Positions 6,001 to 9,000 of a stretch of 64,000 nt of DNA are shown here, in pieces (position 1 is the first letter of the stretch; every line of letters begins with the position of its first letter). This DNA comes from Escherichia coli (GTDB taxonomy: Bacteria; Pseudomonadota; Gammaproteobacteria; Enterobacterales; Enterobacteriaceae): NCBI RefSeq assembly GCF_030013595.1, contig NZ_CP122768.1. One strand, 5' to 3'. The position numbers were made by a program.

Positions 6001-9000
6001 CATGACACACCAGTAAAACCCCTGATGGCTGCAACGGTGCTGCATGCGCTGGATGTCCATCTCTGCTTGCTGACAGTTTTTTACGTCGGTGGGCCATTGT
6101 GTGACAACCACAGTGCTGTAACAGCAGCCTGCCTGTTTTACCTCACCCCCATTCCAGATTTTTAACTGAACCGCCATTCACACCCTGACCACGCTGCCCG
6201 TACCGGGACGGTTGCTGCCTGCGTGTCGTCTGGCGGCTGAGGAATATGACGATGTACGCAAAATCTTTTCTCGCATTCGATGGCAACGGACGCCTGACCG
6301 GTGCCCGTACTGCACAGACAGCGCCTTACGATCGATACACCTGTCACCTTTGCGGCAGTGCGCTCAGATACCACCCGCAATACGATACCGAACGTCCCTG
6401 GTTTGAACACACTGGCGAAGGGCTGGCTGAGCACGGTCATGAGTGCCCTTATGTCAGACCGGAGCGCAGAGAAATACTGTTGATTAAACGCTTACAGCAA
6501 TGGGTACCGGATGCCTTACCCGTGGTGCGTAAAACCAGCTGGCACTGCAGACAATGTCACCACGATTATTATGGGGAGCAGTACTGCACACACTGTCATA
6601 CAGGGCGTTTCAGTGAGGAGGCAGTGGCAGGATGAACGGTCTAAAAACGGGGCTGGGGATCACGCCAGGTGAGCACATTATCAGTGCCGATTCTGCGCTC
6701 AGCAGAAATATCAGGCATTGTTTCTGCCTTTCCTGTCGTGGTCGGTTGATTTTGCAGACAGATGCTCAGGGGGCGTGGTTTGAGCATGATTTACATGCCC
6801 TGACCGCGCAACAGAAGACGGCCTGTGTGGTGCTGAATCCGGAAAAATCCCATCCTTACATTGATGATATGGCGATGTTTTTATCGCCATTACCTGTCGT
6901 GCTGGAGTGGCATTGTGTGATGTGCGGGCAGCATTTTCCCGGGAAAAAGTTCTGTGAAGCCTGTGGCACGGGGATCTATTCCAGAGCGGTATGTACAAAG
7001 TATGTTTACAGCTACCAGCCAGACTTGTTCCAGGACTGTGGAAGTGCGAGCACTTAATCCGAAATGCCTGGTCTGCGCAGGGCGTTCAATCCAACTCGAC
7101 GAACATCTTCCAGTGTTGAATTAGCTGATAGCTCCTCCATTTTTTGTAAAGAACAGTTATACAGGCTTATTTGAACAGCTCTCTTTTTATTCAAACACAG
7201 CCAACAATACTCAGATGTAAGTATTTTTATATTCATGAATGGAGAGGCAAGGTCTGATGAATTTAATTACAGAACGTTCTTGAGCCATTGTCCTCTCCAG
7301 TTCATTAAAATAGTTACTACGTTAATTCACACCCAGCGCCTTATAAACAGCATCAACCGGGTCTGAGTAAAAACTCACCTGAAACTTGGTAAATAACTCT
7401 GCCGGAACCGTTGGAATATCCATAGCCGAGGACATCGGCAACAGAACCCGTTTTGCACCGCTGTCGAAGGCGAGCTGTAAACTGGCGGCAAGATCCTGCA
7501 CCGGGTTAATTACCCCACCAAGCGTCATACTGCCCAACACCACCATCTGTTCCTGCACCGGTTTTGCCAGCAATATCGAACATAAAGCGATAAGCGCAGC
7601 AAGACTGGTTGCGGTGCTTGGGCCAGTATTATGCAGTTCAACGACATGAAGGTGATATTCATGATCGGAGAATTTCGCGGCCGCGCTTACCCGATTCAAA
7701 TTGCCTTTGAAGTAATCGAAACCGACGCGGATAGCTTCTTTCGCGGAGGTATTTGAACCCAGACCCGATACACTATGCTTACCATTACCGGCAGTCATCT
7801 GTGTTTCAAAACGATACAGCCCGGTCATGCCGCTTTCTGCCTGAGTGACCAGATGCACAACACCCGGCTTTGGCATTCCGGCAGGAATAAGTTCGCTGCC
7901 GCCCTGTTCCGGTACGCTCACAAAAAACTCTTCCAGCGTTTCGTTGTCGATGTAGCTAAAGTTCACATCGAAGAACTCCAGACCGCCCAGTTTTTTAAGT
8001 TGCTCTTTCACGCGGCGACGAACTTCCATCGCATAGGTCAGGCAGACTCGCACATCTTCTTTGCTGTACGCGCCATCGGGATGCATGAGTTTTAACAACC
8101 CCGACACGGTACGTCGAACGGCAATAACGTCACGCTGGTTGAGGTTGTTACCCAGCTTAAAGAATTTATCAATCGCATCAGAGAAACTGCGTTTGCGCAT
8201 TTCGCGCATATATTCAGCGAGATAATCCGTAATCAGCCCGTAACGGTTGGTAAAAAATTCCGGGCGCATTTTGGGGATTTCCCAACCGGGAATATAGGCA
8301 TGAAAGCGGTCGAAAAATGCAGTATCAATCATCGCAGCCGGAAATGGCGCCAGCAAATGGCTGGTTTTAACGAGAGTCTCTACGCTTTGATTGATGTTGC
8401 CGACGAAAACCATCGACGCTTTACCTTCAATCGAATCTCTGCCGCGAGAGAAAGATCCTGACGCCATGTAATCTTTCATGATTTGCACGCCGTCTTTATC
8501 TTTGAAAGTGATCCCCGCGACTTCGTCGAACGCTACCACATCCCACATGCCAACCAGGCCGATCTGGCGACTGGCCATGTTGTAGAACAGGTTGGCAACG
8601 GTCGTTTGCCCGCCAGAAACTAACAGGGAGTTAGGAGAACACTCTTTATACACATGGCTTTTACCGGTGCCACGCGGCCCCAGCTCGCAAACGTTATAGT
8701 TGTTCTCCACGAACGGGATCATACGGGTGATAAGGTGCCATTTGGTGCGTTGCTCAATATTGGCGGGCTCCATACCCACTGAGCGCAGCAGCACATCGAT
8801 CCACTGATCACGGTTAAAGTGTTTACGCGCATCGAACACTTCTTCCATATCCATATTCGGCATCTGGATAGGCTTAAGCGTCATCAATGAGAAGGGCGAA
8901 GTCTTCTGCCCTTCTTCAAAGAAATAGTTGACGGTAATCATGCACCAGATACCGCCCGTTAGTAGCTTCTCGTTGTCTTTAACCATCTGCGAGGGCACCA

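What the first reader, a model, noticed from the sequence alone, without database searches (positions are those of the whole stretch)
6246..7057. Tandem pair of paralogous Cys-rich zinc-ribbon proteins beside the BREX remnant
Two translationally coupled ORFs (ATGA overlap at 6632-6635, Shine-Dalgarno GAGGAGG) encode 129-aa and 141-aa proteins with the same two-part architecture: an N-terminal C-x2-C ... W-F-E-H ... C module (CHLCG...PWFEHTG / CFCLSC...AWFEHDL) and a C-terminal W-H-C-x2-C-x9-C-x2-C zinc ribbon (WHCRQC...CTHC / WHCVMC...CEAC). I cannot place them in a named family; the first module is only loosely reminiscent of the CxxC...HFAH zinc site at the N-terminus of CoiA-like nuclease-family proteins (from memory), with no attached nuclease domain. 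They are convergent with brxL in an accessory island, where small nucleic-acid-binding or defense-accessory genes cluster. Best candidate here for an undescribed two-gene module; function is inference.
Basis: partly seen in the sequence, partly recalled or inferred. Interest (0 to 1): 0.75.

Follow-up and report, generated by a model that had tools for sequence, protein, structure and literature searches.

The report
Paired zinc-ribbon genes of island backbone
Two small, real, zinc-binding paralogous genes that belong to a catalogued but never characterised family; they are conserved backbone genes of a very common enterobacterial genomic island and sit next to its cargo slot, so they are not a BREX-specific module.

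Summary
Two overlapping ORFs (A 6252/6246-6635, B 6632-7057; ATGA overlap, GAGGAGG upstream) encode paralogues (32% identity) under purifying selection (dN/dS 0.10 and 0.16).

They do fall in named families. Both match Pfam DUF7828 (PF25165) plus Zn_ribbon_11 (PF11682), and RefSeq calls them "putative zinc ribbon protein". I found no paper on their function.

The pair is not tied to BREX.
- 71% of complete E. coli genomes hold at least part of the pair.
- In 19 of 19 species loci across Enterobacterales, A follows a YfjJ/YagK ("inovirus Gp2-type") gene with HUH and YxxK motifs.
- B follows A in 15 of those 19 loci.
- The DNA downstream varies: BREX remnant here, then Dpd, type I R-M, Dsr1, McrB-like, T6SS or sugar genes elsewhere.

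Best reading (inference): zinc-dependent nucleic-acid-binding partners of the Rep-like protein in island DNA processing. A ~100-nt leader upstream of A is strikingly conserved and unexplained. Interest is moderate.

The parts
5271..5870 (+). YfjJ/YagK-like ('inovirus-type Gp2') Rep-like gene, 199 aa, with HUH (HIH, residues 89-91) and YxxK (Y159-K162) motifs. It is the constant upstream partner of the pair.
   Evidence: RefSeq name on the identical sequence. Weak Pfam hits to REP_ORF2-G2P (E 1.6e-4) and YagK_YfjJ_C (E 5.6e-4). Residues R38, D40, W78, E81, H89, H91, Y159, K162 and K166 are invariant in 12 homologues, including K-12 YfjJ and YagK. A homologous ORF lies upstream on the same strand in 19/19 species loci.
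6147..6245 (+). Conserved non-coding leader directly upstream of gene A (core 6203-6236, then AGGA at 6240-6243). Its function is unknown: an mRNA leader or a DNA binding site.
   Evidence: 85-96% identical to the leaders of E. coli, Salmonella, Hafnia, Mixta, Tenebrionibacter, Siccibacter and Erwinia psidii, where protein A is only about 60-70% identical. The core is unique in the window. Where the core pattern matches exactly (10 of 45 loci), there is one copy, upstream of A. Support for an RNA structure is weak and there is no Rfam match.
6252..6635 (+). Gene A (127 aa from 6252; 129 aa if started at 6246). It has a DUF7828 / CoiA_N-like zinc domain (nt ~6255-6512; C33, C36, W52-F53-E54-H55, C67) and a Zn_ribbon_11 domain (nt ~6531-6623; W99, C101, C104, C114, C117).
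6615..6635 (+). Coupling signals for B inside the 3' end of A: GAGGAGG at 6615-6621 and the ATGA stop/start overlap at 6632-6635.
   Evidence: Read directly from the sequence. The same -4 overlap occurs in E. coli Nissle, and a -13 overlap occurs in loci with the second B variant.
6632..7057 (+). Gene B (141 aa), the faster-evolving paralogue with the same two domains: DUF7828 (nt ~6641-6886) and Zn_ribbon_11 (nt ~6893-7000).
   Evidence: Pfam DUF7828 E 1.3e-21 and Zn_ribbon_11 E 4.8e-17. 32% identical to A. dN/dS 0.16. This variant of B is nearly confined to Escherichia; other genera carry other B variants in the same position.
7322..14689 (-). Cargo in the slot downstream of the pair, not part of the module: a truncated BREX-1 (brxL, pglZ, 3' two-thirds of pglX) cut by IS903B (14749-15717).
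   Evidence: ORFs. No complete E. coli genome in the collection spans the junction at about 14692. The full BREX-1 is annotated in relative NZ_CP029747.

Best explanation
**What it is (shown).** These are two paralogous small proteins of the catalogued but uncharacterised DUF7828 + Zn_ribbon_11 family.
- Each has an N-terminal zinc domain (~85 aa) homologous to the N-terminal zinc-finger domain of the competence nuclease CoiA: a beta-hairpin, a CxxC knuckle, the WFEH motif and a distal Cys.
- Each also has a C-terminal four-Cys zinc ribbon (~35 aa).
- Neither has an enzymatic domain.
- They are backbone genes of an enterobacterial integrative-island type related to CP4-57 of E. coli K-12. Its backbone carries a GTPase, DUF932, an antirestriction protein, RadC and the CbtA/YeeU toxin-antitoxin pair.
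- They are the last genes of the arm that also holds a YfjJ-like gene (and often AlpA), immediately before the variable cargo slot.

**How it most likely works (inferred).** They are zinc-dependent nucleic-acid-binding adaptor proteins. I propose they act with the adjacent YfjJ/YagK-type protein, whose HUH and YxxK motifs are those of rolling-circle replication and relaxase-type nickases. Together they would process island DNA, for example by recognising or loading at a nick or origin site during replication or mobilisation of the excised island.
- The CoiA_N-like module would supply DNA recognition, as I presume it does for the D-loop nuclease CoiA.
- A would be the conserved core partner and B a rapidly diverging second subunit.
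- Expression would be controlled through the conserved leader upstream of A.

The pair has no specific link to BREX.
For: **Family and fold**
- Pfam hits.
- Confident AF2 model.
- hhalign of the N-domain against 77 CoiA N-termini gives 96% probability, E 4.3e-9. It aligns the hairpin, the CxxC and the F-x-H motif.
- Many genuine CoiA proteins carry precomputed hits to both CoiA_N (PF25164) and DUF7828.
- CoiA is described as a PD-(D/E)XK protein required for transformation D-loop resolution, with a small putative N-terminal zinc finger (bioRxiv 10.1101/2024.02.06.579203).

**Real genes**
- dN/dS 0.10 and 0.16, with out-of-frame controls above 1.

**Linkage to the Rep-like gene**
- 19/19 species loci have a gp2-like ORF within 1.5 kb upstream on the same strand; B follows A in 15/19.
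- Two of the most divergent single-copy members still sit in the order YfjJ, AlpA, zinc-ribbon gene, cargo; in the loci of one of them the integrase follows.
- HUH and YxxK motifs are invariant in 12 Gp2/YfjJ homologues.

**Backbone, not cargo**
- Downstream genes differ: BREX, Dpd, autotransporter/CdiI, sugar genes, IS.
- Further loci show type I R-M, an Orf5/HEC-06-like defence candidate with a type I methyltransferase, McrB-like, Dsr1 and T6SS, and a set of genes with domains typical of conflict systems or an ars operon.

**Distribution**
- Matches in 3854 of 5426 complete E. coli genomes, median 2 places per genome.
- No match in 50,697 phage records and matches in only 33 plasmid records.

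**Regulated expression**
- The leader upstream of A is more conserved than the protein.
Against: - No experiment or paper bears on function.
- The proteins have near-neutral pI, not the basic charge typical of many DNA binders.
- A fused A-linker-B AF2 model gave pTM 0.38, so a heterodimer is not supported. That test was a crude single-chain construct with a 13-row paired alignment.
- K-12 CP4-57 and CP4-6 carry YfjJ/YagK without any zinc-ribbon gene. In two Salmonella loci the adjacent gp2 copy is split while the pair is intact. The Rep-like protein and the pair are therefore not strictly interdependent.
- The Rep/HUH assignment rests on weak Pfam hits (E ~1e-4) plus motifs, with no match to any solved structure.
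- The role of the CoiA N-domain is itself untested.
Confidence: 0.4

Rival explanations
1. They are small zinc-finger transcription factors of the island, working like Ogr of phage P2 or Delta of satellite P4. They would switch on island or cargo genes by contacting RNA polymerase or a promoter.
For: The genes sit in the regulatory arm with AlpA. They are small two-zinc-site proteins in tandem, reminiscent of P4 Delta being a doubled Ogr (my own knowledge). They lie immediately before the cargo slot. The weak zinc-ribbon similarity to RPB9 and eL43 (E 0.1-0.5) shows only a generic ribbon.
Against: No Ogr_Delta or other transcription-factor family appears in the Pfam scans even at E <= 10. Cargo orientation relative to the pair varies: convergent BREX, Dpd and ars, but co-directional Dsr1 and R-M. 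That argues against read-through or a fixed promoter relationship. The N-domain's only detectable relatives sit mainly on CoiA-type nuclease proteins.
Confidence: 0.2
2. They are a generic defence-associated or anti-defence accessory. For example, they could be a sensor or regulator shared by whichever defence system occupies the adjacent slot, or a protein that protects the island's own DNA.
For: Defence systems lie directly downstream in most sampled loci: BREX, Dpd, type I R-M (three loci), an Orf5/HEC-06-like defence candidate with a type I methyltransferase, McrB-like and Dsr1. B's C-terminus weakly matches the PADLOC candidate PDC-S64 (E 0.003). The island also carries antirestriction and RadC genes.
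Against: The same pair also borders T6SS, sugar-utilisation, autotransporter, arsenic-resistance and IS-only DNA. There is no convincing PADLOC hit. The pair's constant neighbour is the YfjJ-like gene, not any defence gene. K-12 CP4-57 has defence cargo (AbpAB, RnlAB) in the same slot without the pair.
Confidence: 0.12
3. They are a BREX-specific accessory pair.
For: They are adjacent to and convergent with brxL here and in relatives with the complete BREX-1.
Against: Of the more than 15 distinct contexts sampled, BREX occurs only in this E. coli lineage. At least part of the pair is found in about 71% of complete E. coli genomes.
Confidence: 0.02
4. They are decaying, functionless remnants, or fragments of one larger gene.
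For: Many database relatives are partial or frameshifted. Some species loci carry split copies: L016, L017, L031, L032.
Against: dN/dS is 0.10-0.16 with clean reading frames. Intact pairs occur in 10-11 genera. All zinc ligands are invariant. No longer collinear protein exists among 1.84 billion representative sequences.
Confidence: 0.03

Closest known systems
N-terminal zinc-finger domain of competence protein CoiA (Pfam CoiA_N, PF25164)
   Different: CoiA continues into a PD-(D/E)XK nuclease domain (PF06054) and a long C-terminal region, 317 aa in streptococci. It acts in natural transformation. Here the domain is followed only by a 35-aa zinc ribbon, and the genes sit in islands of Enterobacterales.
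Pfam DUF7828 (PF25165) + Zn_ribbon_11 (PF11682, formerly DUF3279); RefSeq 'putative zinc ribbon protein'; UniProt 'Ybl85'
   Same: A and B are straightforward members with strong HMM matches. Identical proteins WP_021564611 and WP_063100935 are in RefSeq. AlphaFold DB neighbours carry these names.
   Different: Nothing differs. The family has no assigned function, and I found no paper on it.
Cryptic prophage CP4-57 of E. coli K-12 (intA-alpA-yfjI-yfjJ-cargo-yfjP...)
   Same: It shares the backbone genes: a YfjJ-like gene, a GTPase, DUF932, an antirestriction protein, RadC, DUF987 and a CbtA-type toxin-antitoxin pair. AlpA is present in related loci from other genera. Its cargo slot lies directly after yfjJ and holds defence genes (AbpAB convergent, RnlAB).
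   Different: K-12 CP4-57 and CP4-6 lack the zinc-ribbon genes. In this island type the two backbone arms are divergent rather than collinear.
Ogr (phage P2) and Delta (satellite P4) zinc-finger late-gene activators
   Same: They are small zinc proteins of mobile elements, and Delta is a doubled Ogr, paralleling the tandem pair here (from my own knowledge, not tested).
   Different: No sequence match in the Pfam scans. The zinc-site spacing and fold relatives differ. No P2/P4 genes were noted in the neighbourhood.
Zinc ribbons of eL43/L37Ae and RPB9
   Same: Weak sequence resemblance to the C-terminal ribbon (E 0.1-0.5). This explains the stray database names 'RNA polymerase beta subunit' and 'ribosomal protein L37AE'.
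   Different: The matches are not significant. This is a generic four-Cys ribbon only, with no homology of function implied.

Membership tests
Pfam DUF7828 (PF25165) | Significant match to the family HMM over its full length | tested here: met
   A: E 2.1e-28 over model positions 1-87 of 87. B: E 1.3e-21 over 2-86 of 87.
Pfam Zn_ribbon_11 (PF11682) | Significant HMM match with the W-x-C-x2-C ... C-x2-C-x-x-G motif | tested here: met
   A: E 2.5e-8. B: E 4.8e-17. W99, C101, C104, C114, C117 and G120 are invariant or nearly invariant in 20 sequences.
CoiA competence protein family | CoiA_N-type N-terminal zinc domain | tested here: met
CoiA competence protein family | PD-(D/E)XK nuclease domain (PF06054) following the N-domain | tested here: not met
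   No PF06054 hit even at E <= 10. The proteins are 129 and 141 aa and end after the zinc ribbon. None of the 150 best of 294 relatives carries an added enzymatic-size domain; the longest, P0224 (238 aa), is a fusion of two family copies.
CoiA competence protein family | Role or context in natural transformation | tested here: not met
   The context is an integrative island next to a YfjJ-like gene and, in related loci, AlpA, in Enterobacterales. No competence genes are nearby.
BREX system accessory genes | Conserved co-occurrence with BREX core genes across genomes | tested here: not met
   The downstream cargo is BREX only in this E. coli lineage and is replaced by unrelated genes elsewhere.
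Known or candidate defence proteins (PADLOC-DB v2) | Significant match to a defence-system model | tested here: not met
   A: none. B: only PDC-S64 at E 0.003, covering 50 C-terminal residues.
Ogr/Delta zinc-finger activators (PF04606) | Match to the Ogr_Delta HMM | tested here: not met
   Not among the Pfam matches listed at E <= 10.
HUH rolling-circle Rep / Gp2-like proteins (applies to the upstream partner gene 5271-5870) | HUH metal-binding motif and catalytic YxxK motif in Rep order | tested here: met
   H89-x-H91 and Y159-x-x-K162 are invariant in 12 homologues. Weak Pfam REP_ORF2-G2P and YagK_YfjJ_C hits.
HUH rolling-circle Rep / Gp2-like proteins (partner gene) | Nicking-joining activity at a defined origin | not testable with these tools
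   No biochemical data. No match to a solved structure by sequence.
Phage-borne genes | Presence in phage genomes | tested here: not met
   tblastn found no match in 50,697 phage records. No PHROGs family matched.

The most novel reading that the evidence does not exclude
The gp2-like HUH protein plus one or two CoiA_N-type zinc-ribbon proteins, with their conserved leader, may form an undescribed replication or mobilisation initiation module of an island type present in most E. coli genomes. In this reading the zinc proteins are trans-acting DNA-structure recognition subunits of the nickase. The module would also mark the slot where defence systems are exchanged. A further possibility is that the ~100-nt leader is a new cis-regulatory RNA or operator bound by the zinc proteins themselves.
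Probability: 0.2. Interest if true: 0.6.

Novelty: new member of a known kind. Interest (0 to 1): 0.35.

Why it matters
This island type is present in about 70% of complete E. coli genomes and in many other Enterobacterales. It carries a slot where defence systems (BREX, Dpd, R-M, Dsr1, and AbpAB in K-12) are swapped. How these islands replicate or move is not known.

The YfjJ-like gene and the zinc-ribbon genes are the conserved genes flanking that slot. They are therefore useful landmarks for finding new cargo, and candidates for the islands' DNA-processing machinery.

The link to CoiA's N-terminal domain gives a first handle on two Pfam families of unknown function. It also offers a nuclease-free model for studying what that domain does in CoiA.

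Tried and rejected
**Family and fold searches**
- NCBIfam, PHROGs and PADLOC scans of A, B and the gp2-like protein gave nothing significant.
- A PDB sequence search found only generic ribbons at E >= 0.1.
- Foldseek against AFDB50 listed only family members in its top 50.

**Literature**
- Searches for DUF7828, DUF3279, PF11682, Ybl85, YfjJ/YagK, 'inovirus Gp2' and 'putative zinc ribbon protein' found no functional study.
- I checked the PIME integrative-mobilizable-element preprint. It describes a different element family with repA and trb genes.

**Heterodimer test**
- A fused A-linker-B AF2 model with a 13-row paired alignment gave pTM 0.38, which is inconclusive.

**Local signals**
- Promoter, terminator and repeat scans of 4300-7400 gave nothing above chance.
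- Rfam had no match in 1-9000.

**RNA structure for the conserved leader**
- RNAalifold gave -7.2 kcal/mol with almost no covariation.
- A hand-built three-helix model got modest support.
- RNAfold z-scores were about 0 on both strands.
- I therefore make no structured-RNA claim.

**Other**
- The first attempt to scan genome contigs with the mixed A/B alignment failed because it had no conserved stretch. I repeated it with A-type sequences only.
- I first took the BREX cluster to be complete, from the annotation of a relative. I corrected this after checking the window's own ORFs.
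Full report
**1. Observation**

The window holds two + strand ORFs, A at 6246-6635 and B at 6632-7057. They overlap in ATGA, and GAGGAGG lies 10 nt before B's start codon.
- A and B are 32% identical over 84 residues (E 4e-11).
- Against the E. coli Nissle copies (89% nucleotide identity), dN/dS is 0.10 for A and 0.16 for B. 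Reading the same DNA one base out of frame gives 3.7 and 1.3. Both are real genes under purifying selection.
- A probably starts at 6252 (MYAKSF). An AGGA lies 8 nt upstream, and this is the start used by RefSeq and shared by the homologues from other genera.

**2. What they are**

Both proteins match two Pfam families. DUF7828 (PF25165) gives E 2e-28 and 1e-21. Zn_ribbon_11 (PF11682, formerly DUF3279) gives E 2.5e-8 and 5e-17.
- Identical proteins are in RefSeq as 'putative zinc ribbon protein'. UniProt entries carry the names 'Ybl85' and 'DUF3279', plus misleading transferred names such as 'RNA polymerase beta subunit'.
- I found no paper on the family.
- An exhaustive profile search of 1.84 billion representative proteins returned only 294 relatives. 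The 150 listed are all short stand-alone proteins. The pair is therefore not a broken larger gene.
- Invariant or near-invariant residues are C33, C36, W52-F53-E54-H55 and C67 in the N-domain, and W99, C101, C104, C114, C117 and G120 in the ribbon.

**3. Fold and the CoiA link**

An AF2 model of A is confident (pLDDT 90, pTM 0.80).
- I retrieved genuine streptococcal CoiA sequences. Many of them carry precomputed hits to both CoiA_N (PF25164) and DUF7828.
- A profile-profile comparison of the N-domain with 77 CoiA N-termini gives 96% probability, E 4.3e-9. It aligns the hairpin, the CxxC and the F-x-H motif.

CoiA is reported as a PD-(D/E)XK protein needed to resolve the transformation D-loop, with a small putative N-terminal zinc finger (bioRxiv 10.1101/2024.02.06.579203). 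A and B lack the nuclease domain entirely.

**4. Context**

The window is E. coli chromosome.

*Upstream.* A 199-aa 'inovirus-type Gp2' / YagK-YfjJ-like protein lies at 5271-5870. HUH and YxxK motifs are invariant across 12 homologues, including K-12 YfjJ and YagK. An Hha paralogue lies further upstream.

*Downstream.* The convergent BREX cluster is truncated in this window. brxL, pglZ and 832 of 1219 codons of pglX remain, followed by IS903B. A close relative has the full six-gene BREX-1.

*Distribution in E. coli.*
- A match to at least part of the pair occurs in 3854 of 5426 complete genomes, with a median of two places per genome.
- 1409 genomes match at least 80% of the pair.
- Most of the rest match only A. 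In the one such locus I examined, A was followed by a different B variant with a 13-nt overlap.

*Distribution across species.* In a scan of one genome per species, 19 loci from at least 14 genera hold gene A. The genera include Salmonella, Hafnia, Mixta, Serratia, Yersinia, Budvicia, Trabulsiella, Buttiauxella, Siccibacter, Leclercia and Enterobacter.
- All 19 have a gp2-like ORF within 1.5 kb upstream on the same strand.
- 15 have a second family member directly downstream, and 10-11 of those pairs are intact.
- A is conserved (about 60% identity or more across genera). B falls into at least three divergent variants.
- Two of the most divergent family members I looked up are single genes in the order YfjJ, AlpA, zinc-ribbon gene, cargo; in the loci of one of them the integrase follows.
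- One natural protein (P0224) fuses an extra N-domain to a full copy.

**5. The cargo slot**

The DNA just beyond the pair differs from locus to locus:
- BREX here;
- the Dpd 7-deazaguanine system in Citrobacter;
- autotransporter and CdiI genes in Salmonella;
- sugar-utilisation genes in Nissle;
- type I R-M in three genera, an Orf5/HEC-06-like defence candidate with a methyltransferase, an McrB-like gene, Dsr1 and T6SS genes;
- a set of genes with domains typical of conflict systems, or an ars operon.

K-12 CP4-57 has AbpAB and RnlAB in the equivalent place after yfjJ but lacks the zinc-ribbon genes, as does CP4-6.

The family is absent from 50,697 phage records and is found in only 33 plasmid records. 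The pair is therefore island backbone bordering a cargo slot that often holds defence systems. It is not a BREX or P4-type accessory.

**6. Mechanism**

*Shown:* two zinc-site modules, no catalytic domain, homology of the N-module to the CoiA N-domain, strict synteny with a Rep-like HUH-motif gene, and purifying selection.

*Inferred:* A and B bind nucleic acid and act with the YfjJ-like protein in processing island DNA, either replication of the excised circle or mobilisation.

*Against or unresolved:*
- pI is near neutral.
- A fused A-linker-B model gave pTM 0.38, so there is no support for a heterodimer.
- YfjJ-type genes exist without the pair, and the pair persists where the adjacent gp2 copy is split.

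Rival readings are island transcription factors, a generic defence or anti-defence accessory, a BREX accessory, and decay. They are scored in the rivals section.

**7. Conserved leader**

The ~100 nt before A's start codon (6147-6245; core 6203-6236) are 85-96% identical between E. coli, Salmonella, Hafnia, Mixta, Tenebrionibacter, Siccibacter and Erwinia psidii. That is more conserved than the protein.
- The core is unique in the window.
- Where the core pattern matches exactly (10 of 45 loci), there is one copy, upstream of A.
- Evidence for RNA structure is weak, and there is no Rfam match.
- The conservation points to regulated expression or a DNA site, and remains unexplained.

**8. Verdict**

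The genes belong to a catalogued, uncharacterised family and are ordinary, very common backbone genes of an enterobacterial island type.

What is new here:
- the documented homology to the CoiA N-domain;
- the conserved trio with the YfjJ-like gene;
- the position at the cargo slot;
- the conserved leader.

Interest is moderate (0.35). Function remains inference.

Noticed in passing
window 6147-6245 (core 6203-6236); also 6079-6130: The non-coding stretch directly upstream of gene A is 85-96% identical across at least seven genera, more conserved than protein A itself. A second block (CTGACAGTTTTTTACG...GTGTGACAACCACAGTGCTGTAACAGCA) is conserved in E. coli, Salmonella, Mixta and Enterobacillus. 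No Rfam match, weak covariation, folding z-score about 0. It could be an mRNA leader, an operator or a nick/origin site.
   Followed up: partly
window 12191-15717: BREX-1 is truncated here. pglX keeps only its 3' 832 codons and is followed by an IS903B transposase gene (14749-15717, - strand). brxC, brxB and brxA are missing. No complete E. coli genome in the collection spans this junction, while a relative (NZ_CP029747) has the intact six-gene system.
   Followed up: partly
window 4686-5039 (+): An island-encoded Hha paralogue (NCBIfam Hha, E 3e-30 over residues 51-116) lies just upstream of the gp2-like gene. The same arrangement occurs in E. coli Nissle.
   Followed up: no
window 1833-2405 (-); homologues at L007:5330-5923, L002:6022-6555 and others: A ~190-aa protein family with no Pfam match recurs, sometimes twice, in the same island arm in E. 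coli, Salmonella, Citrobacter and Mixta. It is another uncharacterised backbone gene.
   Followed up: partly
L028:10953-14756 (Yersinia), L026:7443-13223 (Trabulsiella), L027:13217-15292 (Buttiauxella), L025:12597-16720 (Citrobacter), L002:9051-16302 (Citrobacter): The slot after the zinc-ribbon genes holds Dsr1, type I R-M, an McrB-like gene, an Orf5/HEC-06-like defence candidate with a methyltransferase, and the Dpd system respectively. The gp2-like and zinc-ribbon genes could serve as landmarks for mining defence cargo.
   Followed up: partly
L039:6400-9320 and L040: Next to a divergent single-copy family member lies a set of genes with SMEK_N/CTD10, MC6 and DUF2326 domains, typical of predicted conflict systems, followed by the island integrase.
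   Followed up: no
protein P0224 (238 aa): A natural fusion of an extra DUF7828 N-domain to a complete family member. It is a weak hint that two copies work together.
   Followed up: no
L014 ('Collinsella' MAG), L015 ('Bacillota' MAG), L035 ('Clostridiales' MAG): Contigs assigned to Gram-positive MAGs carry gene A and the gp2-like gene; in L014 and L015, A is 85-86% identical to the E. coli protein. These are almost certainly enterobacterial contigs mis-binned into those MAGs.
   Followed up: no
L009 and L010, 7245-7817: In two Salmonella loci the gp2-like gene next to the pair is split into 76- and 50-aa pieces while both zinc-ribbon genes are intact. The pair can therefore persist without that copy, although other gp2 paralogues remain nearby.
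   Followed up: no
L041:2524-3477 (-): The protein divergent from the YfjJ-AlpA-zinc-ribbon arm has a weak Pfam hit to RepB-RCR_reg, a rolling-circle replication regulator. This fits a rolling-circle-type module in these islands.
   Followed up: no
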